Of a stretch of DNA of 38,714 nucleotides, positions 26,426 to 38,714 are shown one piece after another. How positions within the stretch are numbered: the stretch's first letter is position 1; every line of letters starts with the position of its first letter. The stretch is from Candidatus Poseidoniaceae archaeon (GTDB lineage: Archaea > Thermoplasmatota > Poseidoniia > Poseidoniales > Poseidoniaceae), in NCBI GenBank assembly GCA_949538025.1, contig CATISI010000210.1, forward strand, positions 1 to 38,714, written 5' to 3'. A model generated the notes under the pieces. It ran no database searches. It saw nothing but the letters and a program-made list of their open reading frames with translations, and was not told the DNA's origin. The translations under genes were made by a program, and so were the position numbers.

Positions 26426-26440
26426 GCGCTTCACCTAATG

Positions 26441-27931: not shown

Positions 27932-28425
27932 TGGACCACCTCTTCGGAGAGCGTCATGCGGCCATCGCTGAAGACCAACTGATAGGGTCTCTTTGATTCG
28001 GTACTGAGATCGATGAGTGGAAGTGATGAGTCTTTAAGAGCGACCTCAGCAAATCCTCGCATTGCAGCAGAAACCCATTCAATGCTATCGAATTCTTCTG
28101 CTGTAAAAAATCGTAAATCTGAGATTTCATCTTCTTGTGGCTTCGCATCGAAATTGCTCGCCGAAATTTTGTAGCATAGGAAGAGGCCGACACCTTGTCT
28201 GGTCTGCGTTGTCCTTAATCCAATAAAACCCGAGACGTCTCCTGTGATGTTTGTTTCTTCGTGAAGTTCACGCAGTACTGCGTTTTCGATGGATTCGTTG
28301 GATTCAACGTGTCCTTTTGGGAGACCCCAACATCCAGCATAGGTTCCTTTGGCTTCTTGCACCAAAAGGATGCAGGAATCTGTGACTACAGCAGCAGCCA
28401 CGCCGATGTCAAAGTCTCCAGCCAC
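27928..28425 (-). CDS. NUDIX hydrolase
   Basis: Nudix box WGLPKGHVESNESIENAVLRELHEETNI. Confidence 0.9.
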   Translation of the reverse strand: MAGDFDIGVAAAVVTDSCILLVQEAKGTYAGCWGLPKGHVESNESIENAVLRELHEETNITGDVSGFIGLRTTQTRQGVGLFLCYKISASNFDAKPQEDEISDLRFFTAEEFDSIEWVSAAMRGFAEVALKDSSLPLIDLSTESKRPYQLVFSDGRMTLSEEVVQ

Positions 28426-28532
28426 GGGTAGATTTGAGCGGGCCCAGTATTTGAAGAACCGTTTACAAAATCGTCACAAGAACAGTTGTTAAGAAACAGT
28501 CCTTTATACATAGAACGTCGTTATCATGAATT
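28426..28532. promoter_or_regulatory. Divergent promoter region (NUDIX-phr arm versus ribA arm); TATA box TTTATACA at 28503-28510
   Basis: TATA-like element about 30 nt upstream of the ribA ATG; repeated AAGAAC(C/A)GTT motifs at 28454-28463 and 28478-28487. Confidence 0.6.
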
Positions 28533-29144
28533 ATGAAGGCAACAGCGGCCAAGAATTACACAGCAGTTCCAGCAGATGCAAGACTGCCGACAAAGTACGG
28601 AGAGTTTCGAATACGATCCTATGTTGACCCGCGCGACGGTGCTGAACATGCAGCCATTTACTATGGCGACATGAACGAACAAGCTCCTCCCTTGGTCCGC
28701 GTACACTCAGAATGCCTAACCGGAGATGCGCTTGGTAGCCTAAGATGCGATTGCGGACCACAACTCCAGCACGCCCTCAAGACCATCCAAAAGGCTGGTC
28801 GCGGTATTGTTCTGTACCTCCGCCAAGAAGGTCGAGGCATTGGCCTGTTCGCAAAAATGCAGGCATACAACCTTCAGGACCGAGGGCTAGACACCCTTGA
28901 TGCAAACCTAGCGCTAAATCTTCCTGCCGATGGTCGCGATTACAAAATAGCTGCACACATGCTCAACGATATTGGCATCGACAGTATTCGGCTGATGACC
29001 AACAACCCAGATAAAGTCGAGCAACTCAGTCAACACGGAATCAACGTCGTTGATCGGGTCGAGCACAAGGCCGGAATCTGTACCGAGAATATAGAATACT
29101 TGCAAACTAAAGTGGCGCGAATGCGTCATATTTTGCCATTTTGA
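28533..29144 (+). CDS. ribA: GTP cyclohydrolase II (bacterial-type)
   Basis: LPTKYGEF, VRVHSECLTGD..GSLRCDCG Zn motif, QEGRGIGL, LDT..AN, RLMTNNPDK motifs. Confidence 0.96.
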   Translation: MKATAAKNYTAVPADARLPTKYGEFRIRSYVDPRDGAEHAAIYYGDMNEQAPPLVRVHSECLTGDALGSLRCDCGPQLQHALKTIQKAGRGIVLYLRQEGRGIGLFAKMQAYNLQDRGLDTLDANLALNLPADGRDYKIAAHMLNDIGIDSIRLMTNNPDKVEQLSQHGINVVDRVEHKAGICTENIEYLQTKVARMRHILPF

Positions 29145-29155
29145 GGTCGATGCAC

Positions 29156-29680
29156 ATGGGGGAAGTCATATTGACGGCGGACCGCCTCACACAAGCGGAG
29201 GCGAAGCGGGTGAGCAAAGATTTGATTGGTGAACTTGCTCCTGAATTCTCGCTAACAGACGATGCGGGCAACGAATTTCAAAGCTCGAGCTTGGATGGTT
29301 CGTGGAGAATTCTGTTCTTCTACGCCAAGGACGGCTCCCCGACCTGCAAACGCGGGTGTTTGACCTTCAAAGAACAACACGACTTGTTTGTTTCAGCGGG
29401 ATGTCAAGTCATTGGAATTGGCGAAGGAACAAGCGAATCACATGCCAAATTTAAGAAGGAACTTGGTGGGCTTCCGTTCCCACTTCTTGCAGATCCCGAC
29501 CGTGCAGTTGCAGACAAATTCCTCGTACCTGTTCACCTCGGAATGTTCCCTGCAAAATCGAGTTTCCTCATTGGACCAGATAACCGGATTCATCACGTCT
29601 ACGACTGGCTCTTCCGCCCCCGTCGTCACGTCGCTCGAATTCTCAAGAGCCTCTCAACCGTCACCGGAGGGTCCGACTGA
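29156..29680 (+). CDS. BCP/PrxQ-like peroxiredoxin-fold protein with altered active site
   Basis: G..APEFSL.D..G, LFFY.KD.SP.C, FPLLADPD, FLIG motifs; GAGGT SD before ATG 29156. Confidence 0.82.
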   Translation: MGEVILTADRLTQAEAKRVSKDLIGELAPEFSLTDDAGNEFQSSSLDGSWRILFFYAKDGSPTCKRGCLTFKEQHDLFVSAGCQVIGIGEGTSESHAKFKKELGGLPFPLLADPDRAVADKFLVPVHLGMFPAKSSFLIGPDNRIHHVYDWLFRPRRHVARILKSLSTVTGGSD

Positions 29681-31077
29681 TGTGGGACAGTCTTCTTAAC
29701 GAGGCTGGCCTAACGGAGCGAGAAGTTCGCTCCATCATGGTGCTCGGCAACAATCCAAACATGCGAGCAAGCGAACTCGCCAAAGAACTACAAACCACTC
29801 GACTCGATGCATACAACAGCCTATCCCGCTTGCAAGAGATGGGCATCGTTACCGCTACCGCAGACCGCCCGATGTTGTTCTCGAGCCTTCGAGTCGACGA
29901 GGCTCTGCAACACATCATCGAGATGCGACGACGCCAACTGGACAACCTCGAGGAGGGTTTTAATGAACTCTCAAAAGGCATCAGTGAAGCGAACGCTTCC
30001 TATGAGGCAAATCGACGCCAAAGAGACGAGCCACGGTTCGCTGTGTTGAAGGAGCGAAGCCACATCTATCGACGTCTGGAACGAATGGCAGAAGAAGCCG
30101 AAGAACGACTTGTGCTCCTGCTCGGACGCTACGGTATTCTGCACCTTTGCCGAAGTGAAGCACTCGAGACCGTCAACATGGTCGCAGAAAAAGGCGTTGT
30201 TGTACAGGTCATTGCTCAACTCGATCGACGAACAACTCGATTTTTCCAGAAACTCCACGATTCCATCGAAATCAAGCACTCTGACGATCTCGACTCTCAA
30301 GGATTCTTGCAAGATTGTACCCACGTTGTTCAATTCTTGAACATCGAGGAAAACCCGGTTGGGCGAGGCAAGGAAGATGCAGCGTTGGTTATCGAAAGTG
30401 AGCCCTTCGCCAAAGCACAAGAAAATCTCATCGATACAATTTGGGAAGATGCCGTTCAGTTCGAAGTTGCTGAGGCTCGATTCTCCAAAGGTCGAATCCA
30501 TGATCCGCTCCGACTAACCATTGGCGAAGGCTCCTTCCTCGACTCACTCGTTGGCGCATTGGGCGTGGACGACCTGCCCGAACACGACACACCGTTCGAC
30601 CCAGATGCTTTCCTTGCGGCAGGTACTGAAGTCAATCAAGCACGACAAGAGCTTACCAAGGGTCGACTATCGAATCTGAAAATTCTCGGTATTGATCTCT
30701 CACGTATGCTTCGTCAAGTAGGAAACCGTGTTGGTCATGAACTCGCATTTTCACTTCGATCTATCGAGAATCACGTCGAATTCCTGGATGAAATGATGGA
30801 TTGGTGGGAGTTTGCTGGCCTTGGTCGACTCGAGTATGGCATTGACCCAGTATTCCACGTACAGGTTGGCCTAGACCATCCACCGAGTGAGGATCCAGAC
30901 GTCCTCCCGATGTGGGAACTCGACGATGGTATCATTGAAGGTGCTTTGATGACACGCTTCCCGAAAGATGGGAACGTCAACGTCCGACGATACGACGGGA
31001 CAGGTCAGCCAGATGACCTTTGGCGCTATCACATCATCATGAACAATGAAGAACAGCCAGCAGAACCATCGTCATAA
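29680..31077 (+). CDS. TrmB-family transcriptional regulator with central effector-like domain and C-terminal V4R-like domain
   Basis: GLTERE...ASELAK....R..AY..L..L...GIV.....RP..F winged-HTH pattern, coiled coil, alpha/beta middle domain, C-terminal LRQVG.RVG..LA...W..AGLG...GIIEG.L. Confidence 0.82.
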   Translation: MWDSLLNEAGLTEREVRSIMVLGNNPNMRASELAKELQTTRLDAYNSLSRLQEMGIVTATADRPMLFSSLRVDEALQHIIEMRRRQLDNLEEGFNELSKGISEANASYEANRRQRDEPRFAVLKERSHIYRRLERMAEEAEERLVLLLGRYGILHLCRSEALETVNMVAEKGVVVQVIAQLDRRTTRFFQKLHDSIEIKHSDDLDSQGFLQDCTHVVQFLNIEENPVGRGKEDAALVIESEPFAKAQENLIDTIWEDAVQFEVAEARFSKGRIHDPLRLTIGEGSFLDSLVGALGVDDLPEHDTPFDPDAFLAAGTEVNQARQELTKGRLSNLKILGIDLSRMLRQVGNRVGHELAFSLRSIENHVEFLDEMMDWWEFAGLGRLEYGIDPVFHVQVGLDHPPSEDPDVLPMWELDDGIIEGALMTRFPKDGNVNVRRYDGTGQPDDLWRYHIIMNNEEQPAEPSS

Positions 31078-31886
31078 TGGGCCCAAACGAAACCACCGTC
31101 TTGGTTGTCTTTGCTTACGTTACAACTGCATGGCTAAAGACCGTTTCATCTGGTAATGTTACTGTAATGGATGTTCTTTGGGGGATGGGTTTTGTCATCA
31201 TCGCTTGGACCCGGTTTTTGTGGTCGAACACTATCAACATTGCAGCAATTGCATGTCTCGTGTGCGTCACACTATGGGGGCTAAGGCTCGGTTTTGTTCT
31301 GCATAAGCGAACCAAAAATCGGGGAGAAGATCCTCGCTACGTACGGATGCGTGAAACTGCTGGACGGCACTGGTGGTGGATCAGTTTTCTACAAGTCTTC
31401 GTCCTCCAAGGCCTTCTTCTTCTCATCATCGCCTTACCCATTTTCCTACTCATTCCAGGACCTCCTGATTCCGTGGATTGGACAGCGGAAAAAATCATCT
31501 TATCATTGGTTTGCTTGATTGGTTTTTTGATTGGGTTGCTACTTGAACACAAAGCCGACATGGAGCTGAAGCGATTTCGAGAACTCCATGGACCTGGGCA
31601 TCTCAAAACCGATGGGATGTTTTCAGTCACGCGCCACCCCAACCATCTCGGGGAGGCTATTCTCTGGTGGTCCGTCGGTGTATTCGCGGTCGTCGTTGGA
31701 GGCAGCAATGCATTGGTTGCCCTGATTGGGCCAGCAATCCTTACACTTCTCCTACGTTATGTGAGCGGCGTCAAGATGTCCGAGGTCGACTTACAGGAAC
31801 GTAATGGTTACCAAGAATGGGTGACGAAGACTCCTGCGATGTTCGCAAACCCCATACGTGCACTCTTGAAGAAAAACGCCGATTGA
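31077..31886 (+). CDS. DUF1295 family membrane protein (steroid 5-alpha-reductase-like)
   Basis: DVLWG.GF, WGLRLG, GEDPRY, F.LQG, E.KAD.EL..F, RHPNHLGE..LWW, SGV..SE and Y..W...T..F motifs. Confidence 0.9.
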   Translation: MGPNETTVLVVFAYVTTAWLKTVSSGNVTVMDVLWGMGFVIIAWTRFLWSNTINIAAIACLVCVTLWGLRLGFVLHKRTKNRGEDPRYVRMRETAGRHWWWISFLQVFVLQGLLLLIIALPIFLLIPGPPDSVDWTAEKIILSLVCLIGFLIGLLLEHKADMELKRFRELHGPGHLKTDGMFSVTRHPNHLGEAILWWSVGVFAVVVGGSNALVALIGPAILTLLLRYVSGVKMSEVDLQERNGYQEWVTKTPAMFANPIRALLKKNAD

Positions 31887-31911
31887 TAAATGGAAGGGGG
31901 ATTTTCTATCT

Positions 31912-33201
31912 ATGCGCCTCCTGACATTTGTCCGGTTTATTCGTATGATTACGAAGGATGGGCCTGCTGATTTGAACAAAATTCAGGACATGGGTCTTCT
32001 CGCTGTCAAACTTACCCAAATCTTTGCACTTCGACCAGATCTTCTTTCGGAAGAGAAGTGCCGACAACTGCAATCTCTATATCAACGAGCAAATTCCATA
32101 CCTAAAGAAGACTCAATGAAACTGATTGCAGACCGAGCGCCATCCGGTTTCCTCGATGCCTTCGAATCGTTTGAAGAGGAACCGTTCGCAGCGGCAAGCA
32201 TTGGCCAAGTTCACCGTGGTGTGTTGAAAGATGGTAGTGAAGTGGTTGTCAAAATCATCAAATCCGATTTTGAGAAATCCTTCCGCAAGGATGTTGCTCG
32301 AATGCGACGATGGCTTCGCATCGGCCTCTTTTTGAATCCACGATTGCGGAAGGTGGGAAATCCTGTTGGGTTGCTTCAACACGTCGAAGATTACACACTG
32401 AGGGAGCTCGATCTCCGAAATGAAATCCAAGGGGCTGAATTACTTCAAACCAAAGCAAAAGAAGTTGCGCATCAGTTTCCTATGCCGTTGTTGAAGTTCC
32501 CGAAGGTTTGGCCAGAGTTATCCAATCGCCACGTGCTGGTTATGGAGCACATCAAAGCACCAACACTCGAATCGCGTTTGGCCAACAAAGACCTTTCATG
32601 GGAAGATTTGTTGCAGCTTTTCCGCATCCACGGAGCCTACATGTTCGGCATCGGAACCTTCCACGGTGATCTTCACCCTGGCAACGCCATGGTCGATAGC
32701 GATGGAATGTTCACGTTCATTGATACAGGAGCAATTTCACATGCACCAGAAAGCGTTCGTTCAGCATTGTTTGGTTTCTTTTACTATCTTGCAAAAGGAG
32801 AACTTGAGGATGCATTCGAAGCCATGTTGACCATGGCTGATACGCCTCCGACGGGCGACGCAAAAGAACGTTACATGCGTGAAATGTATGAAACATACGA
32901 CGGCTTTGTTGGAAAATCGGTAAGTGAAGTCAGCCTCACTCAACAGATGATGAAAACGGTACGAATTGCGGTCCTGGCTGGGTGCCGATTCGGTGAGGAA
33001 GCCTTCCCAATCATCAGGTCTCTGATGTACATGGACGGCATGGTTTTACGGGGGCATCCTGAAGTCGATCTTATCTCGTCGATGGGCCCTTACCTTGATG
33101 AGTTTGCATCGATCGTCGAGTTACCATACACAGGAGACTCAAGTTCTCAAAAGACATCAACGGCGGCCTTTTGGGAAGGGAATTTGAAGCCCACCGACTA
33201 G
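31912..33201 (+). CDS. ABC1/UbiB/AarF family atypical kinase
   Basis: KLTQ..A.RPDLL, PFAAASIGQVHRG, VVVK, ELD..NE, VLVME and FHGDLHPGN motifs. Confidence 0.92.
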   Translation: MRLLTFVRFIRMITKDGPADLNKIQDMGLLAVKLTQIFALRPDLLSEEKCRQLQSLYQRANSIPKEDSMKLIADRAPSGFLDAFESFEEEPFAAASIGQVHRGVLKDGSEVVVKIIKSDFEKSFRKDVARMRRWLRIGLFLNPRLRKVGNPVGLLQHVEDYTLRELDLRNEIQGAELLQTKAKEVAHQFPMPLLKFPKVWPELSNRHVLVMEHIKAPTLESRLANKDLSWEDLLQLFRIHGAYMFGIGTFHGDLHPGNAMVDSDGMFTFIDTGAISHAPESVRSALFGFFYYLAKGELEDAFEAMLTMADTPPTGDAKERYMREMYETYDGFVGKSVSEVSLTQQMMKTVRIAVLAGCRFGEEAFPIIRSLMYMDGMVLRGHPEVDLISSMGPYLDEFASIVELPYTGDSSSQKTSTAAFWEGNLKPTD

Positions 33202-33217
33202 TGGCGTAAAACGTCGA

Positions 33218-33225
33218 TTTATAAG
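33218..33225 (+). promoter_or_regulatory. Archaeal TATA box upstream of crtI (likely leaderless transcript)
   Basis: TTTATAAG 29 nt upstream of ATG 33247, preceded by A-rich BRE-like AAAA; no SD seen. Confidence 0.7.
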
Positions 33226-33246
33226 CCGCATCTCGGTAGTAGAAAT

Positions 33247-34854
33247 ATGACTACCCTCAATGCACCAACCGCCATCATCGTAGGCTCAGGACCCGGGGGT
33301 CTTGCCTCCGCACTTCTACTCGCTCATTCTGGTGTCAAAGTCACCGTACTCGAAAAGGCCGATGCAGTCGGTGGACGCACTAGACTCTTCACAAAAGACG
33401 GCTACACATTTGACCGTGGACCAACTTTCTTCCATTACCCAGAGGTCATCGAAGAAATTTTTCAAGCCATTGGTCGCGATGCCCACAAGGAACTTGGGCT
33501 GATGCCGTTGGACCCAATGTATCGTCTCGTCTTTGGCGCAGGTGGCCACATCGATGCAACAAGCAACCTTGAAGAAATGACTGAACGTATTCGAGAACTT
33601 GCTGGCGATAAGAACGCTGACGGATTCAAAAACTACGTCAAGCAGAATCGTAAGAAACTGGACCTCAGCAAAAAGTGCTTGCAAACCCCTTGGAGAAGCC
33701 CGTTGGACATTCTATCTAAACGTGCCATGCGGGTTGCTTCCGTCCTCAAGCCTTGGGCCAGCGTTGCTGGCGATCTTGGTAAGCACTTCGACGATGAGCG
33801 CATCAGACTGGCTATGTCATTCCAAACCAAGTATCTGGGAATGAGCCCATTCCATGCACCATCGCTGTTTACCATTCTCGCTTTCCTTGAGTATGAGCAC
33901 GGAATCTTCCACGCCAAAGGAGGCTTAGGAAGCATCACGGCCCGAATGGGCGAAATCGCTGAAGAGATGGGTGTCGATATCCGACTTAGCACTCCAGTCA
34001 AGTCCCTCATCTATGAAGGCAAGACCGTCACCGGCGTTCGAATTGACGGTGGCGACATAATGGCGGACAGAGTGGTCGTCAACGCTGATTTTGCTCATGC
34101 CATGACTACCCTTGTACCCAACGAAAAGCGAAAGAAGTGGTCAGACAAAAAGCTGGAAAAGAAAGGGTACTCCTGCTCGACGTTCATGCTTTACCTCGGT
34201 GTAGACAAACAATACGATCTGCCGCATCATCAGATTTATGCATCTTCTGAATACGAAAACAACCTCAAGGACATCACAAACCATCGGCTTACTTGGGACG
34301 ACCCCTCCGTTTACGTGCAAAATGCTTCAATCACCGATGATTCGCTTGCTCCTGAAGGCCACTCAACTGTTTATGTTCTCGTGCCTGTACCAAACCAACA
34401 CGAAAGCATCGTTTGGGATGATATCAAAGCAGATTTCAGAGAAATCGTTGTTAAGCAACTTTCGAAACTGGGCTACGATGATATCGGCGACCACATCGTC
34501 TCAGAGACCGTGATTACACCAGATGACTGGGGCGCATCTGACATCTACCGTGGTGCAGTTTTCAATCTTACACACGATCTCAAGCAAATGTTGTGGCGAC
34601 GCCCACACAACCGATTTGAAGAAGCCAACAACCTCTACATTGTTGGCGGTGGAACTCATCCAGGCAGTGGCCTCCCTACCATTTTTGAAAGCGCCCGCAT
34701 CAGCAGCAAATTGGTACTTGATGACCTAGGAATCGACCCTGATTGGAACGGTGTCGATACGTGGTTTGAAGGAATTCGACGTTCACCCCGTGGACGCAAA
34801 GCTCAGCGAAGAGTGACGGCAGCGAAAGAAACTGGCACGCCGACCAACGCTTGA
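33247..34854 (+). CDS. crtI: Phytoene desaturase family protein (CrtI/CrtN-like)
   Basis: IIVGSGPGGL FAD motif, GY.FD.GPT, FQ.KYLGMSP, SCSTFMLYLG, LAPEG..T.YVLVPVP and GGGTHPGSGLPTIFESARI motifs. Confidence 0.93.
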   Translation: MTTLNAPTAIIVGSGPGGLASALLLAHSGVKVTVLEKADAVGGRTRLFTKDGYTFDRGPTFFHYPEVIEEIFQAIGRDAHKELGLMPLDPMYRLVFGAGGHIDATSNLEEMTERIRELAGDKNADGFKNYVKQNRKKLDLSKKCLQTPWRSPLDILSKRAMRVASVLKPWASVAGDLGKHFDDERIRLAMSFQTKYLGMSPFHAPSLFTILAFLEYEHGIFHAKGGLGSITARMGEIAEEMGVDIRLSTPVKSLIYEGKTVTGVRIDGGDIMADRVVVNADFAHAMTTLVPNEKRKKWSDKKLEKKGYSCSTFMLYLGVDKQYDLPHHQIYASSEYENNLKDITNHRLTWDDPSVYVQNASITDDSLAPEGHSTVYVLVPVPNQHESIVWDDIKADFREIVVKQLSKLGYDDIGDHIVSETVITPDDWGASDIYRGAVFNLTHDLKQMLWRRPHNRFEEANNLYIVGGGTHPGSGLPTIFESARISSKLVLDDLGIDPDWNGVDTWFEGIRRSPRGRKAQRRVTAAKETGTPTNA

Positions 34855-34863
34855 GGGAACAAC

Positions 34864-35427
34864 GTGCGTTTCGTTGCCCTCATTGTCCTTTTATTCCTAT
34901 CGGGCTGCCTCGAATCAACGATTGAAGATGGTCGGGTTTTCACCGTTGAAACACTCGATCGACCAGAAGATGCTGGTCCGATGTATTCCATGAAAGATAA
35001 CCTCAGTGAAGGGCCCGTGTTGGTTCTCTTCATCGGTGTTGGCTGCATCGGCTGCAAGGACTGGACTGATGACTTGCGTGAGCATCACAACGACTGGATG
35101 ACACAAGATCCACCTCTGCAAATTGTCTCCGTCGAGCGGTATCTCAATTTCGAAACAAAGGAAGATGTCGCAGAAGAATTCGGTTTCTTAGACAGCAACC
35201 ACTACACGCCATGGCCGATTGTTCTGCCAACCGATGATGACTCCATCCAAAGAATTGAAGACCAAGCCAATTTGAGCCAATCCATTTTCGAATACTACGG
35301 CCTTCCTGGTACACCTGCATTGTTCCTCATCGATCAAAACGGTGTCATCCAATGGGAAAGTGACACCTACTATCCGAACGAGAACTCCATTGACGAGATT
35401 GAAAAGGCGTACAACAAGGTGATTTGA
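34864..35427 (+). CDS. Thioredoxin/TlpA-like lipoprotein (CxxC)
   Basis: Lipobox-like LSGC after a hydrophobic stretch; PVLVLF...CIGC; GTP..FLIDQNG. Confidence 0.82.
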   Translation: MRFVALIVLLFLSGCLESTIEDGRVFTVETLDRPEDAGPMYSMKDNLSEGPVLVLFIGVGCIGCKDWTDDLREHHNDWMTQDPPLQIVSVERYLNFETKEDVAEEFGFLDSNHYTPWPIVLPTDDDSIQRIEDQANLSQSIFEYYGLPGTPALFLIDQNGVIQWESDTYYPNENSIDEIEKAYNKVI

Positions 35428-35879
35428 TGGTTGAAACAATGCTCCTAGTCGCCTTCTTTACTGCATCCATGTGGGTTGGCCCATTCTGGATGCTGATGCT
35501 CCTACAGCCACATGCTGAGCGAACAAAGAAGTGGATGAATGGACCATGGTTTGTTCTTGGACCGTTGGTCGCATATCTCATTGTTCTTGCTATGAATCTC
35601 GGTGCACTGAGTGATATGATCGGAGATGGTACACTGAGCGGTCTTATTTCCGGACTTGCTGATGTCCTTGGAACAGACGACGGTGCTGTCCTTGCATGGA
35701 CACACTTCGTGATTGGTGACATCATTGTAACTCGATGGATTTGGAAGCGTAGTGTTGAGACAGAAATCAACAAAACGGCTGCACAAGTCGCAATCCTGTT
35801 TGGCGTGATGCTCATGCCAGTTGGACTCGCAATCCATTTTATCACGATGCAGACGTACAAGCGCAACAACACGCATTGA
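35427..35879 (+). CDS. ABA4-like (DUF4281) membrane protein
   Basis: PFW.LM...P....T, W.HF...D....RWI and L....PVGL motifs across four TM helices; ATG overlaps the upstream TGA. Confidence 0.8.
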   Translation: MVETMLLVAFFTASMWVGPFWMLMLLQPHAERTKKWMNGPWFVLGPLVAYLIVLAMNLGALSDMIGDGTLSGLISGLADVLGTDDGAVLAWTHFVIGDIIVTRWIWKRSVETEINKTAAQVAILFGVMLMPVGLAIHFITMQTYKRNNTH

Positions 35880-35904
35880 TAACTGAAAGAATTGGGGTTA
35901 AAAC

Positions 35905-36897
35905 ATGAACAAGACGGACTTGATTGAAAACGCATTCCTTGAATGTGAAGAAATCTGCCGCCGTGCCTCCTCCACCTTCTATGCAAGTTTCTCCGCATTA
36001 CCGTACCAAAAGCGACGTGCTGTCCACGCAGTCTATGCATTATGCCGCTACCTTGACGATATAGCTGACGGTGATTCTCGACCGGTCGTTCAAGAATCCG
36101 AAGCCCTCAACAAACTTGTCAATGAGCGTGATGAACTTCTCCAGAGCATTCATCAAACAGCAATGAACAACGCTCCTGAGGAGCACCGATACCGATTGAT
36201 GGCACTTGTTGATGCGAAGGAACGACTCAATCGATTGTTTGCTGGAGATGAATCTGCAACTCAAAACGAAGCAATTTTCATTGCCATCAATGAGGTTTTC
36301 AAGCAGTTCCCAGTTCGCCTCACAGATTTTGAAACAATCATCGAAGGAATGGAAGATGATTTGTTCGAAGTACGTCACAAAACCTGGGACGAAGTTCGCG
36401 CGTACTGCTACAAGGTCGCTTCAGCAGTTGGGCTCGTCTTGATTGAAATCTATGGATGCGAAGATGCTGGAGCACGGATCCATGCCATCGACATGGGAAT
36501 TCAATTACAATTGATCAACATCCTTCGTGACGTCTCAGAAGATTATCGCAGTGGCAGAATTTATCTTCCAATCAATGCATTGAGCGAATACAACATCGAG
36601 ATTTCCGAGCTCGGTAACACTGAATTTGGGACCAACCACCGCTGGAAGTCATTCGTTCAAGAATACATTGAAATCGTTCAACGACACCAAGAATCGGCTC
36701 AACATCTGTTTGAGTATCTTGATTCAAAGTCTCGATTGCAGCCACAACTCATGTGCGAAGCATACGATGCGATCTTCTACGAAATTGTTCGACGTTCAGG
36801 GGACGTGTTTAGCAAGCGCCCTTCCTTATCCAAGTGGAGAAAGATTCGTCTTGCTGCAAAACTTTCGCTTCGCCGGCTTCGTGCTCGATGGTCCTAA
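35905..36897 (+). CDS. crtB: Phytoene/squalene synthase family (CrtB/CrtM/HpnD-like)
   Basis: SSTFY, AVYALCR.LDDIAD, YCY.VAS.VG, QLINILRDVSED..GRIYLP motifs. Confidence 0.92.
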   Translation: MNKTDLIENAFLECEEICRRASSTFYASFSALPYQKRRAVHAVYALCRYLDDIADGDSRPVVQESEALNKLVNERDELLQSIHQTAMNNAPEEHRYRLMALVDAKERLNRLFAGDESATQNEAIFIAINEVFKQFPVRLTDFETIIEGMEDDLFEVRHKTWDEVRAYCYKVASAVGLVLIEIYGCEDAGARIHAIDMGIQLQLINILRDVSEDYRSGRIYLPINALSEYNIEISELGNTEFGTNHRWKSFVQEYIEIVQRHQESAQHLFEYLDSKSRLQPQLMCEAYDAIFYEIVRRSGDVFSKRPSLSKWRKIRLAAKLSLRRLRARWS

Positions 36898-36950
36898 TCG
36901 TTTGACCGTTGAGGCAATGCATTGAAACCCTAATGGCCGGTGGTTGTATC

Positions 36951-37724
36951 ATGGACGAGGTCTTACCAGTCTCCGTCACAGTTCTCCTTCCTACCCGGAA
37001 TGAAGAGGAAGCACTCGGTGCAACCGTCGATGCCATCCCTCGCGATTGGTGCGAATCACTGGAAATCATGATCGTTGACGGTTCCTCATCGGATCGAACC
37101 AGAGAAATCGCTCTTGAGAAGGATGTCCGCGTTCATCTCGAACCACGAAAAGGCTACGGTCGAGCCTATCGCACTGGATTCGTTGTTGCTTCAAACGACA
37201 TCGTTGTCACCATGGATGCGGATTGTACATATCCAGCTGAGTTGATTCCTGAATTGGTCAAGCGACTTGTGGATGATAACCTCGATTTCATCACGTGTGA
37301 TCGCCTCAGCATGGCTGAAGATGGATCGATGTCTGGTCTTCACGGATTTGGAAACTGGGTTCTCTCATTCACCGCACGACTTCTCTTCGGTTATGGAATC
37401 AAAGATTCTCAATCGGGCATGTGGGTGTTCAGAAAATCGATTTTTGAGAATCAAAAGATGCGTCCAACCAATGACGGAATGCCTCTATCTGAAGAAATCA
37501 AAATCCTTGCACGCAAGCATCTTGATCGGAAAAAGGCGATCGAAATCTCCGTCCCATACCGTGAGCGTGTTGGAGAAGCTGAAATTCATACATGGGGCGA
37601 TGGTTGGAAGAACCTTCGATTTCTCTACGCGAAGCGATTTGGCCTGCACAGGACAAGAACAGAATGGGGTCCACTTGAAGACAATCCAGACAGTTTGAAT
37701 GGTACGTTACCCGAACAGCAATGA
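36951..37724 (+). CDS. Glycosyltransferase family 2 (DPM1-like, no TM helices)
   Basis: LPTRNEE, IVDG.S.D.T, GYG.A...G, MDAD.TYP, DSQSGMW and YRERVGE motifs. Confidence 0.9.
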   Translation: MDEVLPVSVTVLLPTRNEEEALGATVDAIPRDWCESLEIMIVDGSSSDRTREIALEKDVRVHLEPRKGYGRAYRTGFVVASNDIVVTMDADCTYPAELIPELVKRLVDDNLDFITCDRLSMAEDGSMSGLHGFGNWVLSFTARLLFGYGIKDSQSGMWVFRKSIFENQKMRPTNDGMPLSEEIKILARKHLDRKKAIEISVPYRERVGEAEIHTWGDGWKNLRFLYAKRFGLHRTRTEWGPLEDNPDSLNGTLPEQQ

Positions 37725-37729
37725 TCGGC

Positions 37730-38662
37730 CTATCTTTTCAAACTTCCAAGGCGAGAATCAATTGCAACACGCTGTTGAATCAGTAAAGCAAGGGGTACAA
37801 GTACCCACAATGCAAGCCAGAAATACACCATCTCAGAAATGTAAGAAGGCGTTTCTGTACGCATATCTCCAGTTATGACAATGTATGAACCAGCATCAGG
37901 GCTTGTAGGCTCAGGAATGGTTGCTTCAACGGCTGAGCGATTCGCAGGACGGACCATTCCGATATCGTAGCCGGTCACTTCAAAATCCAGCGTAAATCCA
38001 TCCAAGCCTAGGTTAGACGTTGAAGAAAATTCAGCATGAGCAAGAAATGCTACATTGTCTCGACTATCAGTAAAATCTTGAGGGTTATCAGCAACGGTAG
38101 CAAACCATGATGCAGGCAGGATAAAGAGAATCAGAACCAGAACACTGAGGACGCTTGTAAGCGAAGCAAAGGAGACAAAACGTCGAACGATAGTTCGTTT
38201 AATCCCACTTACCTGTTTGGTTAAGTCAATGCAGATCAAAACGAAAAGAATCGCAGCAAGGCCAATACTTACGTGAATAACTGTGAATGTCATCGATTTC
38301 ACAGTATCTGGAGAAGGTGAAGAAAAGGCCTCATCGAGATTATCATCATACTCTTCGATTTCTTGCTCCGACAAAGCGGCTCGATCATCTCGCTCATCCT
38401 GCCAGTGACTCAGACGAAGAGGTCCAAACAATTCGATGCTGATGTCATCCTGGTCGTTCTGCATATCGATCGTGATGTTCGCTGAAACCCCCTCAAGCGA
38501 AAGAGGTCCTTCTTCAACGGTTGTTGAAAGGGTTCCAATAAACCAAGAATCCTCTTCAAGAGCAGACTTCAGTGAGAGCAAAATCACAATCTGAAGGATA
38601 AGCGTCAGGCTGGCGATAACTCGCCAGCGGGCAATGGGTTCGTGACCCGTTGCTTCACTCAT
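37730..38662 (-). CDS. Hypothetical multi-pass membrane protein
   Basis: 310-aa ORF with four hydrophobic segments and acidic extracellular loops; ATGA overlap with the upstream gene's stop. Confidence 0.72.
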   Translation of the reverse strand: MSEATGHEPIARWRVIASLTLILQIVILLSLKSALEEDSWFIGTLSTTVEEGPLSLEGVSANITIDMQNDQDDISIELFGPLRLSHWQDERDDRAALSEQEIEEYDDNLDEAFSSPSPDTVKSMTFTVIHVSIGLAAILFVLICIDLTKQVSGIKRTIVRRFVSFASLTSVLSVLVLILFILPASWFATVADNPQDFTDSRDNVAFLAHAEFSSTSNLGLDGFTLDFEVTGYDIGMVRPANRSAVEATIPEPTSPDAGSYIVITGDMRTETPSYISEMVYFWLALWVLVPLALLIQQRVAIDSRLGSLKR

Positions 38663-38714
38663 TCTTCGTCCTTCGAACGGATTGATACAAACATTCCTGC
38701 AAGTGCAATCATAG
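38659..38714 (-). CDS. 3' end of a truncated upstream gene (C-terminal TM anchor)
   Basis: Minus strand reads ...MIALAGMFVSIRSKDEE*, with TGA overlapping the ATG at 38662. Confidence 0.55.
   Translation of the reverse strand, partial: MIALAGMFVSIRSKDEE

What the first reader, a model, noticed from the sequence alone, without database searches (positions are those of the whole stretch)
33247..37724. Unusual carotenoid operon crtI-Trx-ABA4-like-crtB-GT2 with no cyclase: candidate novel acyclic (glycosyl-)carotenoid pathway
Seen: a TATA box at 33218 followed by five co-oriented, closely spaced genes. No crtE, crtY, blh, elongase or rhodopsin gene is in the window. The desaturase ends in GGGTHPGSGLPTIFESARI, which by recollection resembles Firmicute/Planctomycete/myxobacterial CrtN/CrtI-type enzymes more than proteobacterial CrtI. 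Inference: the product could be a C30 or C40 acyclic pigment modified by the ABA4-like protein and possibly the GT2, rather than a retinal precursor.
Basis: partly seen in the sequence, partly recalled or inferred. Interest (0 to 1): 0.75.

Follow-up and report, generated by a model that had tools for sequence, protein, structure and literature searches.

The report
Archaeal C30-type carotenoid operon, ABA4-like partner
This five-gene operon of a marine group II archaeon most likely makes a short, ring-less (C30-type) carotenoid pigment rather than the vitamin-A-like chromophore of its light-driven pump; its enzyme core was already described, but a conserved plant-ABA4-like membrane protein and its redox partner in the operon have not been explained.

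Summary
A TTTATA box at 33218 is followed by five tightly spaced, co-oriented genes: a CrtI-family desaturase, a thioredoxin-like lipoprotein, an ABA4-like membrane protein, an SQS/PSY-family synthase and a GT2. The host is a Poseidoniaceae (Marine Group II) archaeon.

The desaturase groups with alpha-proteobacterial CrtN-like enzymes of C30 clusters (43-49% identity, against 31-32% to Pantoea CrtI). The synthase has Phe at the CrtM Phe26 size-limiting position. Santana-Molina et al. 2022 already reported CrtN with adjacent hpnD in Poseidoniia.

Retinal genes do exist in this genome, on another contig. They form an accessory island (crtI / crtB-crtY-blh) that brings its own C40-type enzymes, and a rhodopsin lies on a third contig.

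Two things appear new:
- The ABA4-like gene, usually with a CxxC lipoprotein, is linked to the desaturase across the order.
- In 201 genomes, 120 of 122 with a rhodopsin carry this desaturase, yet only 20 carry blh.

GT2 is syntenic only within the window's genus and resembles dolichyl-phosphate glycosyltransferases, so a glycosyl-carotenoid is not supported. I rate it a new variant of a known kind, of moderate interest.

The parts
33218..33223 (+). TTTATA, archaeal TATA-box-like promoter element 29 nt upstream of the crtI2 ATG
   Evidence: Seen directly in the sequence. It is the only TTTAWA on the + strand of 29001-38714. Promoter activity was not tested.
33247..34854 (+). crtI2: CrtI-family desaturase of the CrtN (C30, 4,4'-diapophytoene/squalene desaturase) kind, 535 aa
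   Evidence: - TIGR02734 478.7 bits.
- 43-49% identical to the first desaturase of the Azospirillum, Palleronia and Gluconobacter C30-type clusters, against 31-32% to Pantoea CrtI.
- In the ML tree it is sister to those CrtN-like enzymes, support 85/91.
- Orthologue found in 151 of 201 Poseidoniales genomes.
34864..35427 (+). Thioredoxin-fold lipoprotein (lipobox LSGC at residues 12-15, CIGC at 61-64), predicted to face outside the cell
   Evidence: - Weak AhpC-TSA/Thioredoxin_2 matches.
- C-x-G-C present in 35 of 35 homologues.
- Lipobox found in 27 of 35; the 8 misses include ORFs whose called start is over-extended.
- Invariant residues G60, C61, G63, C64.
- Paired with an ABA4-like gene in two paralogue sets.
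35424..35879 (+). ABA4-like (PF14108/DUF4281) small helical membrane protein without cysteine; the real start is probably the ATG at 35427
   Evidence: - PF14108 77.1 bits; single copy in this genome.
- Invariant W92, H94, D99 in 26 MGII sequences. W and D are also invariant and H nearly so in 45 distant relatives.
- AlphaFold2 model mean pLDDT 90, all-helical.
- Follows crtI2 in 10 of 20 larger loci.
- 136 of 138 ABA4-bearing genomes also carry crtI2.
- The Atlas holds the sequence starting from residue 2.
35905..36897 (+). crtB2: SQS/PSY-family head-to-head synthase of the MGII 'HpnD-like' clade, probably FPP-specific (C30), 330 aa
   Evidence: - PF00494 195.5 bits.
- Best NCBIfam match HpnD, 196 bits, below its 278.6 cut-off.
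- Best solved relatives are CrtM 8is6 (108 bits) and 5iys (103 bits).
- Forms a clade with the genome's sqsB and the G027 synthase, support 97/97.
- Phe at the position aligned with the CrtM size-limiting Phe.
- Adjacent to crtI2 in 30 of 30 loci.
36909..37724 (+). GT2 glycosyltransferase, 271 aa, no predicted membrane helix; polyprenyl-phosphate glycosyltransferase-like. Probably co-transcribed here, but not a conserved member of the module
   Evidence: - PF00535 88.2 bits.
- AglJ 106.8 bits and dolichyl-phosphate hexose transferase 105.9 bits, both below cut-off; CruG 34 bits.
- Syntenic in 11 of 11 loci of the window's genus (the window's own locus included) and 0 of 19 in g3/g4.
- Only 28-29% identity over 93-133 aa to the GT2s of bacterial C30 clusters.
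31912..33201 (+). ABC1/UbiB-family atypical kinase, conserved upstream neighbour of crtI2
   Evidence: PF03109 147.2 bits. It lies upstream of crtI2 in all 10 larger loci that hold crtI2, directly adjacent in 9 and 3.5 kb away in L061.
29680..31077 (+). TrmB-like transcription regulator, a frequent upstream neighbour of ABC1-crtI2
   Evidence: PF01978 33.8 bits. Found next to ABC1 in L051, L057, L059 and L060.
31077..31886 (+). DUF1295 membrane protein (steroid-reductase-like); seen here only in the window's genus
   Evidence: PF06966 172.2 bits, with a weak Steroid_dh match of 17.7 bits. Among the 20 larger loci it is present only in L051, from the same genus.

Best explanation
**What it is.** The cluster is the Poseidoniales version of the C30 ('CrtN') carotenoid pathway.

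**How it probably works**
- The synthase (crtB2, of the MGII 'HpnD-like' clade) joins two farnesyl diphosphates head to head.
- The CrtN-type desaturase (crtI2) desaturates the C30 backbone, either dehydrosqualene or squalene made with the genome's separate tandem synthases. The product would be an acyclic 4,4'-diapo-carotenoid of the diaponeurosporene or diapolycopene type.
- No cyclase, CrtP oxidase, aldehyde dehydrogenase or CrtQ follows, so the end product is most likely an unmodified or only lightly modified C30 polyene in the membrane.
- It probably serves photoprotection or membrane tuning in sunlit water.

**Accessory genes.** The ABA4-like membrane protein, usually with an outward-facing CxxC lipoprotein, is a conserved accessory of this pathway in the order. 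I infer that it binds or converts the polyene in the membrane, by isomerase-type or other acid-base chemistry using the invariant His and Asp. This is not shown.

**Retinal.** In this genome retinal comes from a separate accessory island (crtI / crtB-crtY-blh).

**GT2 and DUF1295.** These are additions specific to the window's genus and more likely serve polyprenyl-phosphate sugar metabolism.

**Shown:** gene families, phylogenetic placement, synteny, distribution, and presence in RNA libraries.

**Inferred:** substrate size, product, physiological role, and the ABA4/Trx function.
For: **1. The desaturase is CrtN-type.**
- The best annotated plasmid homologues are Azospirillum, Palleronia and Gluconobacter (43.3-48.8% identity, 401-472 bits). 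Pantoea CrtI is about 31% and Staphylococcus about 30%.
- Those best hits are the first gene of clusters reading desaturase-desaturase-acyltransferase-GT2-DUF2141-aldehyde dehydrogenase. In Palleronia two SQS/PSY genes and a FAD oxidoreductase lie alongside.
- In the ML tree, crtI2 and its G027 orthologue are sister to these enzymes (85/91). The island crtI1 groups with Pantoea CrtI (97/97).
- PMC9907078 (passages read) places Poseidoniia CrtN in the Planctomycetes/alpha-proteobacterial CrtN branch, with hpnD in its genomic context, and reports no CrtP, CrtQ or AldH.

**2. The synthase looks FPP-specific.**
- Phe occupies the position aligned with the CrtM Phe in crtB2, sqsB, the G027 synthase, two g3/g4 orthologues and both Firmicute CrtMs.
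- Pantoea CrtB, Halarchaeum CrtB and the island crtB1 have Ser, Thr, Arg or Lys there.
- Phe26 is a published size determinant of CrtM (PMC13304436 and PMC4510654, passages read).

**3. The retinal island brings its own C40 enzymes.**
- The island crtI1 of G146 is 58% identical to Pantoea CrtI.
- Seven of 9 blh loci examined (the genome's own included) hold crtI1 next to crtB1-crtY-blh. One is cut by a contig end, and one holds only a blh remnant.
- All 22 blh-bearing genomes also carry crtI2. This argues that crtI2 and crtB2 do not supply lycopene.

**4. Conserved pairing.**
- crtI2 and crtB2 are adjacent in 30 of 30 loci.
- ABC1-crtI2-(Trx)-ABA4 is found in 10 of 20 larger loci, from all three families.

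**5. No other CrtI-family gene.**
- The window's genome has only crtI1 and crtI2.
- In five relatives, four have exactly one match above the crtI_fam cut-off and one (G002) has none.

**6. Light link.**
- Presence tracks rhodopsin-bearing lineages.
- PMC9723583 (passages read) reports high transcription of phytoene desaturase in Thalassarchaeaceae and depletion of crtD transcripts in the dark.
- A photolyase-like gene and a peroxiredoxin lie upstream.

**7. Presence in RNA libraries.**
- RNA-library contigs from two studies cover all five genes.
- One 6048-nt contig of a roughly 94%-identical strain spans 33150-37795.
Against: - There is no biochemical datum for any Poseidoniales enzyme.
- The synthase tree does not resolve crtB2 against CrtM, CrtB or HpnD (4 of 8 inner branches open). 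All NCBIfam equivalog scores are below cut-off.
- The 85/91 support for the CrtN-like grouping is moderate. The Firmicute CrtNs form a separate clade in my 16-sequence tree, so 'CrtN' rests partly on the published, larger phylogeny.
- The C30 function of the alpha-proteobacterial reference clusters is inferred from their gene content and from literature I saw only as listings.
- A single-residue determinant (Phe26) was established in S. aureus CrtM, not in this clade.
- Rhodopsin presence is almost perfectly nested within crtI2 presence (120 of 122). That is what a chromophore-supply role would predict, and PMC9723583 interprets the gene that way.
- ABA4-like genes of bacteria are not linked to crt genes (1 of 80 loci), so a carotenoid role for the family is not general.
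Confidence: 0.6

Rival explanations
1. The operon is a C40 phytoene-to-lycopene pathway that feeds retinal synthesis for the rhodopsin. The window's crtB/crtI would be the host's normal supply, and cyclase and cleavage would be provided elsewhere or by unknown enzymes.
For: - 120 of 122 rhodopsin-bearing genomes carry crtI2.
- PMC9723583 (passages read) lists crtI/crtD under 'proteorhodopsin retinal synthesis' and finds transcripts depleted in the dark.
- crtI2 scores 261.6 bits against the Pantoea CrtI structure 4dgk.
- Archaea make GGPP for their lipids (established knowledge).
Against: - crtI2 groups with CrtN-like enzymes, not with CrtI.
- The synthase has Phe at the CrtM Phe26 position.
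- The blh island always brings its own C40-type crtI and crtB.
- 102 of 122 rhodopsin-bearing genomes have no blh.
- Five well-assembled rhodopsin-bearing relatives have no full-length CrtY (best match 37.6 bits, N-terminal part only) and no RPE65-type oxygenase.
- 31 genomes carry crtI2 without a rhodopsin.
Confidence: 0.13
2. The genes do not make a pigment. The HpnD-like synthase and CrtN-type enzyme produce squalene or partly desaturated squalene derivatives that tune membrane properties. This is the 'alternative functions' reading of the published work and matches the reader's own refutation criterion.
For: - HpnD is the best NCBIfam match for the synthase (196 bits).
- A tandem Sqs-like plus HpnD-like pair is present in 5 of 5 relatives, including one without any CrtI-family gene above cut-off.
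- PMC9907078 states that the CrtN products in Poseidoniia 'could have alternative functions'.
- Genera g14 and g22 have crtI2 in all sampled genomes (13 of 13 and 3 of 3). Every genome of these genera that matched has a single synthase match (sqsB type), so no crtB2-type gene was found there. Most g19 genomes with crtI2 are the same.
Against: - A dedicated desaturase of the carotenoid family sits tightly paired with the synthase in 30 of 30 loci, which is typical of pigment pathways.
- Its distribution follows light-exposed, rhodopsin-bearing lineages.
- The universal tandem synthases already cover a housekeeping squalene role.
Confidence: 0.15
3. One reading: the acyclic carotenoid is modified by the ABA4-like protein to give an oxygen function and is then glycosylated by the GT2, giving a new glycosyl-carotenoid.
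For: - GT2 follows the synthase by 11 nt and is conserved there in 11 of 11 loci of the window's genus.
- An RNA-library contig covers crtB2 and GT2 together.
- Bacterial C30 clusters also contain a GT2.
Against: - GT2 is absent next to crtI2-crtB2 in 19 of 19 loci of genera g3 and g4, and from the MGIIb operons examined.
- Its best families are AglJ and dolichyl-phosphate hexose transferase.
- It shares only generic N-terminal GT2 similarity with the CrtQ-like GT2s (35-47 bits).
- No enzyme is present that would create a hydroxyl or carboxyl acceptor.
- DUF1295, a reductase-like protein also specific to this genus, fits a polyprenol/dolichol context.
Confidence: 0.07

Closest known systems
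CrtN-based 'squalene route' / C30 carotenoid pathway of Planctomycetes and alpha-Proteobacteria (Santana-Molina et al. 2022, PMC9907078), already noted there for Ca. Poseidoniia
   Same: - The CrtN-type desaturase is adjacent to an HpnD-like head-to-head synthase.
- A separate Sqs-like plus HpnD-like pair exists elsewhere in the genome.
- The product is acyclic.
- crtI2 is 43-49% identical to the alpha-proteobacterial enzymes.
   Different: - No CrtP, acyltransferase, CrtQ-type GT2, DUF2141 or aldehyde dehydrogenase is present (also stated in the paper).
- Instead an ABA4-like membrane protein and a CxxC lipoprotein are linked to the desaturase, with an ABC1 kinase upstream.
- None of these occurs in the eight plasmid reference clusters examined: five C30-type clusters and three C40 or C50 ones.
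Staphyloxanthin-type crtM-crtN pathway of Firmicutes
   Same: - Head-to-head synthase with Phe at the CrtM Phe26 position.
- The best solved relatives of the synthase are CrtM entries.
- The synthase and desaturase are adjacent.
   Different: - Only 30-34% identity to Firmicute CrtN, which forms a separate clade in my tree.
- No CrtP, CrtQ or CrtO.
Proteorhodopsin photosystem genes crtE-crtI-crtB-crtY-blh of marine bacteria
   Same: Found in this same genome as a separate island: crtI1 divergent from crtB1-crtY-blh. The G146 copy of crtI1 is 58% identical to Pantoea CrtI.
   Different: - It is not the window's operon.
- The island is accessory: blh was found in 22 of 201 genomes, all in family f1.
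- The window's desaturase is only 33% identical to crtI1.
Plant ABA4 (neoxanthin / cis-xanthophyll formation), Pfam PF14108
   Same: Member of the same Pfam family (77.1 bits). It is a small helical membrane protein genetically tied to carotenoid genes.
   Different: - The presumed substrate here is an acyclic, oxygen-free polyene, not an epoxy-xanthophyll.
- It is paired with an extracytoplasmic thioredoxin-like lipoprotein.
- No biochemical activity is established for any family member. This is my own knowledge; the top 25 of the papers listed were plant, algal or unrelated.
AglJ / dolichyl-phosphate hexose transferases (archaeal N-glycosylation GT2s)
   Same: These are the best family matches of the window's GT2: 106.8 and 105.9 bits over about 200 residues.
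   Different: Both scores are far below the curated cut-offs (325 and 375). The gene sits in a carotenoid operon in this one genus.

Membership tests
CrtN (C30 4,4'-diapophytoene/squalene desaturase subfamily of the CrtI family) | Full-length membership in the CrtI family (FAD-dependent amine-oxidase fold) | tested here: met
   TIGR02734 478.7 bits against a cut-off of 238.1, covering residues 9-497.
CrtN (C30 4,4'-diapophytoene/squalene desaturase subfamily of the CrtI family) | Phylogenetic placement with CrtN enzymes rather than CrtI, CrtD or CrtP | tested here: met
   - Sister to the first desaturase of alpha-proteobacterial C30-type clusters, support 85/91, and apart from Pantoea/Thermus CrtI and from the CrtP-like and CrtD references.
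- 43-49% identity against 28-32%.
- This agrees with PMC9907078.
- Caveat: the tree has only 16 sequences, and the Firmicute CrtNs form their own clade.
CrtN (C30 4,4'-diapophytoene/squalene desaturase subfamily of the CrtI family) | Activity on C30 substrates | not testable with these tools
   Needs heterologous expression and HPLC-MS.
CrtI (C40 phytoene desaturase, proteobacterial type) | Groups with characterised CrtI (Pantoea) | tested here: not met
   crtI2 is 31.8% identical to Pantoea CrtI, whereas the island crtI1 of G146 is 57.8% identical. crtI1, not crtI2, groups with Pantoea CrtI at 97/97.
HpnD (presqualene diphosphate synthase) | Score above the curated equivalog cut-off of TIGR03465 | tested here: not met
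   196 bits against a cut-off of 278.6. It is still the best NCBIfam match.
CrtM (dehydrosqualene synthase) | Bulky Phe at the position of S. aureus CrtM Phe26, which limits the pocket to C15 substrates | tested here: met
   Phe aligns with the corresponding Phe of the S. equorum and Enterococcus CrtM sequences; C40 CrtBs have Ser, Thr, Arg or Lys there. The determinant is documented in PMC13304436 and PMC4510654.
CrtM (dehydrosqualene synthase) | Phylogenetic placement with characterised CrtM | tested here: inconclusive
   crtB2 falls in an MGII-only clade (97/97) whose position relative to CrtM, CrtB and the Hpn enzymes is unresolved. CrtM entries are the best solved relatives (108 and 103 bits).
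CrtB (15-cis-phytoene synthase, C40) | Score above the curated cut-offs of the CrtB equivalog models, or grouping with characterised CrtB | tested here: not met
   Scores of 150.8, 124.6 and 94 bits against cut-offs of 550, 500 and 480. The island crtB1, not crtB2, groups with Pantoea CrtB at 86/84.
ABA4-like (Pfam PF14108 / DUF4281) | Match above the Pfam gathering score over the whole domain | tested here: met
   77.1 bits against a cut-off of 27, covering profile positions 2-127 of 127.
ABA4-like (Pfam PF14108 / DUF4281) | Role in xanthophyll (neoxanthin / cis-violaxanthin) formation, as in plants | not testable with these tools
   No epoxy-xanthophyll genes were seen in the window or in the carotenoid loci examined in this genome. 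The activity of the family is unknown.
CrtQ / carotenoid GT2 glycosyltransferases | Specific similarity to, and conserved synteny with, carotenoid genes | tested here: not met
   - 28-29% identity over 93-133 residues (35-47 bits) to the GT2s of four C30 clusters.
- CruG model 34 bits against a cut-off of 600.
- Synteny only within the window's genus: 11 of 11 loci, against 0 of 19.
AglJ / dolichyl-phosphate hexose transferase | Score above the curated equivalog cut-offs | tested here: not met
   106.8 bits against 325, and 105.9 bits against 375. These are the best matches but lie below threshold.
Extracytoplasmic thioredoxin-fold oxidoreductases (TlpA/ResA/AhpC-TSA-like) | CxxC active site, thioredoxin-fold match, export signal | tested here: inconclusive
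   - C-x-G-C in 35 of 35 homologues and a lipobox in 27 of 35.
- The Pfam matches are below cut-off: AhpC-TSA 21.7 against 26, and Thioredoxin_2 21.1 against 27.
- No structure was predicted for this protein.

The most novel reading that the evidence does not exclude
In the large majority of Marine Group II archaea that have a rhodopsin but no blh, no cyclase and no C40 enzymes, the rhodopsin may functionally depend on this operon. The ABA4-like/thioredoxin-like membrane pair might turn the C30 polyene into a ring-less retinal-like aldehyde chromophore. Central cleavage of 4,4'-diapolycopene would give a C15 pentaenal with the full retinal polyene; this is my own chemical reasoning. Alternatively the pair might capture, isomerise or deliver scavenged retinal to the opsin. 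Either way it would be an unknown route to a rhodopsin chromophore in one of the ocean's most abundant archaeal groups.
Probability: 0.07. Interest if true: 0.9.

Novelty: new variant of a known kind. Interest (0 to 1): 0.5.

Why it matters
Marine Group II archaea are among the most abundant planktonic archaea and remain uncultured, so their pigments and the source of their rhodopsin chromophore are known only from genomes.

This work separates two carotenoid systems in one genome:
- an order-wide C30-type operon, and
- an accessory C40 retinal island found in about one genome in nine (22 of 201).

It shows that published readings of the MGII 'phytoene desaturase' as a retinal-synthesis gene are probably wrong.

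It also gives the ABA4-like family (DUF4281), whose biochemical activity is unknown even in plants, a simple prokaryotic genetic context of desaturase, synthase and CxxC lipoprotein that could be reconstituted in E. coli.

The near-perfect nesting of rhodopsin within carriers of this operon, with blh mostly missing, sharpens the open question of how blh-lacking rhodopsin bearers obtain a chromophore. PMC7734400 names Marine Group II among such organisms.

Tried and rejected
- **Fold search for the ABA4-like model.** Foldseek against the PDB found no match at E <= 0.001. VIA-align wide gave a best Z of 8.2, with generic helical bundles at background level. Both are uninformative.
- **Domain fusions of distant ABA4-like proteins.** Of 33 proteins scanned, 32 carried no partner family beside ABA4-like. 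One of those (P0360) had no ABA4-like match at all, only other weak domains. One protein (P0300) had an FMN_red/flavodoxin-like part. No functional hint came of this.
- **Protein Atlas.** It returned only ABA4-like clusters.
- **Complex prediction, ABA4-like with the Trx-like mature domain.** No verdict (score 0.00, controls not run). This is neither for nor against binding.
- **Bacterial ABA4-like contexts.** Across 80 loci from Chloroflexota, Acidobacteriota, Trueperaceae, Sorangium and others, a CrtI lay within 7 kb in 1 locus. There was no Trx-like, MMPL or DUF2071 partner, and an SDR in 5. The crt linkage therefore cannot be generalised. A first attempt with a 45-sequence alignment failed because no stretch was conserved enough, so a 14-sequence subset was used.
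- **Contamination as the origin of the blh contig C206.** Rejected. The same gene order recurs at 82-97% protein identity in two genomes of the same genus, and the contig's GC (0.483) is within the genome's range.
- **Heterodimeric cyclase PF18916.** Not found in the window's genome, which is 84% complete.
- **RPE65-type oxygenase.** Not found in five relatives that are 91-96% complete.
- **PDB sequence search.** It could not separate C30 from C40 for the synthase.
- **Earlier scan notes.** None fitted.
Their taxa, and whether the 'two genes of unknown function' of the Ca. Kariarchaeum crtB-crtI operon (PMC12137139, legend of Extended Data Fig. 3) are the same pair, remain unknown.
- **RNA-library contigs.** Stretches without cover in runs X1-X3 say nothing about expression.
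- **Supplements.** Those of PMC9907078 and PMC7306690 (datasets listing Poseidoniia enzymes and contexts) were not opened. They may already show the neighbours of crtN.

Full report
**1. The observation**

Gaps between them are 9, -4, 25 and 11 nt. TTTATA lies at 33218, 29 nt before the first ATG, and is the only TTTAWA on the + strand of 29001-38714.

Family scans confirm the gene labels:
- CrtI family: TIGR02734 478.7 bits, cut-off 238.1.
- A weak thioredoxin-fold match: AhpC-TSA 21.7 bits, below cut-off.
- ABA4-like: PF14108 77.1 bits.
- SQS/PSY: 195.5 bits.
- GT2: 88.2 bits.

None of the 28 window ORFs scanned against Pfam (picked from the ORF lists) is a polyprenyl synthase, cyclase, blh, elongase or rhodopsin. 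Base composition is unremarkable.

**2. The organism and the rest of its genome**

Close homologues are named Candidatus Poseidoniaceae or Euryarchaeota archaeon, that is Marine Group II. The assembly has 1.88 Mb in 221 contigs and is 84% complete.

Elsewhere it holds:
- a rhodopsin on C215 (105.3 bits);
- blh on C206 (181.7 bits for PF15461; TIGR03753 222.6 bits against a cut-off of 95.25);
- directly beside blh, a CrtY-type cyclase (137.8 bits), a second synthase (crtB1) and, divergently, a second desaturase (crtI1) that runs off the contig and continues on C91.

This island is genuine. Two genomes of the same genus show the same order, S3Ae...thyA-plsC-orf214-blh-crtY-crtB1 / crtI1, at 82-97% protein identity. 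The contig's GC is typical for the genome.

The genome also has a tandem pair of SQS/PSY genes on C45:
- sqsA, which is Sqs-like and matches only weakly;
- sqsB, with HpnD at 244.1 bits against a cut-off of 278.6.

In total there are four head-to-head synthases and two CrtI-family desaturases.

**3. Which carotenoid system is the window's?**

*Desaturase.* crtI2 is only 33% identical to crtI1. The island crtI1 of G146 is 57.8% identical to Pantoea CrtI and groups with it (97/97). crtI2 is 31.8% identical to Pantoea CrtI but 43-49% identical to the first desaturase of plasmid-borne clusters in Azospirillum, Palleronia and Gluconobacter. In an ML tree of 16 sequences it is their sister, with support 85/91.

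Those bacterial clusters read desaturase-desaturase-acyltransferase-GT2-DUF2141-aldehyde dehydrogenase. In Palleronia two SQS/PSY genes and a FAD oxidoreductase lie beside them. This is the gene content of glycosylated C30 diapocarotenoate pathways.

The result reproduces what is in print. Santana-Molina et al. 2022 (PMC9907078, passages read) found the following:
- CrtN occurs in Ca. Poseidiniia's counterpart class Ca. Poseidoniia, embedded in the Planctomycetes branch together with Rhizobiales, Acetobacterales and Rhodobacterales.
- hpnD lies in its genomic context.
- No CrtP, CrtQ or AldH is present.

Their 2020 paper (PMC7306690, passages read) attributes HpnCDE and Sqs in Poseidoniia to lateral transfer.

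*Synthase.* crtB2 forms an MGII-only clade with sqsB and the synthase next to crtI2 in G027 (97/97). Its position relative to CrtM, CrtB and the Hpn enzymes is unresolved. All equivalog scores are below cut-off, with HpnD the best.

A residue test helps here. At the position aligned with the CrtM Phe that limits the pocket to C15 substrates, the residues are:
- Phe in crtB2, sqsB, the G027 synthase, two g3/g4 orthologues and both Firmicute CrtMs;
- Ser, Thr, Arg or Lys in Pantoea CrtB, Halarchaeum CrtB and the island crtB1.

The determinant itself, with F26A/S/L opening CrtM to GGPP, is documented in PMC13304436 and PMC4510654 (passages read).

*An independent argument.* Seven of 9 blh loci examined (the genome's own included) hold crtI1 beside crtB1-crtY-blh. 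One is cut by a contig end, and one holds only a blh remnant. All 22 blh-bearing genomes also carry crtI2. If crtB2 and crtI2 made lycopene, an island of crtY and blh alone would suffice.

**4. Conservation of the arrangement**

- crtI2 and the crtB2-type synthase are adjacent in 30 of 30 loci from genera g1, g3 and g4.
- The full crtI2-Trx-ABA4-crtB2-GT2 order is found in all 11 loci of the window's genus, the window's own included.
- In 19 of 19 loci of g3 and g4, crtB2 follows crtI2 directly and no GT2 follows.
- In the other families the form is [TrmB]-ABC1-crtI2-(Trx)-ABA4. The synthase lies upstream (G027) or convergent downstream (G196, G107), or is not adjacent. In all, 10 of 20 larger loci show crtI2 followed by ABA4, each with ABC1 upstream.
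- In G027 an SDR lies between crtI2 and the Trx-like gene.

**5. The ABA4-like protein and its partner**

The ABA4-like protein:
- It has no cysteine.
- W92, H94 and D99 are invariant among 26 MGII sequences. The W and D are also invariant, and the H nearly so, in 45 distant relatives.
- Its AlphaFold2 model is confident (pLDDT 90) and all-helical, but has no informative structural neighbour.

The Trx-like protein:
- It has a lipobox (27 of 35 homologues; the misses include ORFs whose called start is over-extended).
- It has an invariant C-x-G-C (35 of 35).
- It should therefore be a lipid-anchored oxidoreductase on the outer face of the membrane.

A second, divergent ABA4-like paralogue (21-29% identical to the window's) lies downstream of a roughly 930-aa MMPL/RND-type gene in four loci examined. 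It has its own Trx-like partner in 19 of the 30 loci fetched.

In G146 the window-type ABA4 gene is the last gene of crtB1-crtY-blh-ABA4. In G090 it follows a blh remnant. In four larger loci of genus g2 it stands alone among unrelated genes: beside PCNA in one, FtsZ in another and an aldo-keto reductase in a third, with the fourth not annotated.

Outside MGII the family shows no crt linkage (1 of 80 bacterial loci). The papers listed for DUF4281/ABA4 were plant, algal or unrelated (top 25 of 4,297 seen as a listing).

**6. Distribution**

In a sample of 201 Poseidoniales genomes, the window's included:

| Feature | Genomes with it |
|---|---|
| crtI2 orthologue | 151 |
| ABA4-like | 138 |
| rhodopsin | 122 |
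| blh (all in family f1) | 22 |

Cross-tabulation:
- Of the 122 rhodopsin-bearing genomes, 120 have crtI2, 115 have ABA4-like and 20 have blh.
- Of the 138 ABA4-bearing genomes, 136 have crtI2.
- 31 genomes have crtI2 without a rhodopsin.
- 48 genomes have neither crtI2 nor a rhodopsin.

The pattern also varies within genera. For example, genus g4 has crtI2 in 6, ABA4 in 6 and rhodopsin in 5 of 10 genomes. G010, G100, G108 and G132 lack all three and also lack the crtB2-type synthase.

Two cautions apply. These genomes are related, so the counts are descriptive. The genomes are 79-98% complete, so single absences are not proof.

Five well-assembled rhodopsin-bearing relatives without blh also lack a full-length CrtY and an RPE65-type oxygenase. 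That Marine Group II has rhodopsins but no blh is already noted in PMC7734400 (passages read).

**7. GT2**

- Its best families are AglJ and dolichyl-phosphate hexose transferase, at 106.8 and 105.9 bits, both below cut-off.
- It shares only generic similarity with the GT2s of four C30 clusters.
- It has no predicted membrane helix.
- It is syntenic only in the window's genus.

DUF1295, a reductase-like membrane protein, was likewise seen only in this genus. Together they look more like polyprenyl-phosphate sugar genes placed beside the operon than like carotenoid-tailoring genes. Co-transcription in this genus is nevertheless likely.

**8. Expression**

RNA-library contigs of two studies cover all five genes. 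Short contigs at 95-100% identity bridge the crtI2/Trx and Trx/ABA4 junctions. One 6048-nt contig of a roughly 94%-identical strain spans 33150-37795. Contigs do not prove a single transcript, and DNA carry-over cannot be excluded.

PMC9723583 (passages read) reports high transcription of phytoene desaturase in Thalassarchaeaceae and depletion of crtD transcripts in dark incubations.

**9. Verdict**

The operon is best read as the order-wide C30 (CrtN-type) acyclic carotenoid pathway of Marine Group II, distinct from the accessory C40 retinal island.

- The core is already published.
- The conserved ABA4-like/CxxC-lipoprotein accessory, and the nesting of rhodopsin within carriers of this pathway, did not come up in the papers I searched. 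The supplements of the two Santana-Molina papers were not opened.
- The glycosyl-carotenoid idea is not supported.

Product size, product identity and the function of the accessory pair remain inferences that a simple E. coli reconstitution would settle.

Noticed in passing
window 25016-29680: Directly upstream of the TrmB-DUF1295-ABC1-crt block lie a DUF1731/epimerase gene, a photolyase/cryptochrome-like gene (FAD_binding_7, a weak 26.9 bits), a NUDIX gene, GTP cyclohydrolase II and a peroxiredoxin (AhpC/TSA, 98.7 bits). The neighbourhood has a light and oxidative-stress flavour.
   Followed up: no
window 13238-19588 (-): A 2116-aa ORF whose only family matches are weak FG-GAP repeats. It is probably a large surface protein.
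   Followed up: no
L159, L162, L163 (G076, G020, G074) versus L160, L161, L164: Within the window's genus the desaturase exists as two alleles: 94-96% identical to the window's in G030, G126, G064 and G114, and 67-68% in G020, G074, G076 and G122. The downstream Trx, ABA4, crtB2 and GT2 genes stay 87-97% identical in the seven of these genomes whose loci were compared (G114 was not). This points to allele replacement inside the operon.
   Followed up: partly
G000 contig C206 (L009 7096-10386) and C91 (L012): An accessory retinal island: crtI1 divergent from crtB1-crtY-blh. blh was found in 22 of 201 Poseidoniales genomes, all in family f1. The island sits at different chromosomal sites in different genera, and in G146 it lies immediately upstream of the ABA4-like gene.
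   Followed up: yes
G000 contig C45 (L011 1440-3913): A tandem Sqs-like plus HpnD-like synthase pair. It is present in 5 of 5 relatives, including G002, which has no CrtI-family gene above cut-off. It is probably a housekeeping squalene-type route.
   Followed up: partly
G000 contig C131 1-3715; L043, L045, L047, L062: A roughly 930-aa MMPL/RND-type gene is followed in other genera by a Trx-like gene and a second ABA4-like paralogue (sometimes DUF2071). In the window's genome it is preceded by a GT2 paralogue 32% identical to the window's GT2. This may be a lipid-export module related to the operon's accessory genes.
   Followed up: partly
G027:C1:160134-161675 and G033:C29:2450-3991: The crtI2 matches in these two Thalassarchaeaceae genomes include one in-frame TAG near the 3' end. 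It may simply be the true stop followed by alignable sequence.
   Followed up: no
P0243, P0258, P0263 and others: Distant ABA4-like relatives include a tandem double-domain form (340 aa) and forms of about 460 aa with roughly 330 extra residues that match no Pfam family.
   Followed up: partly
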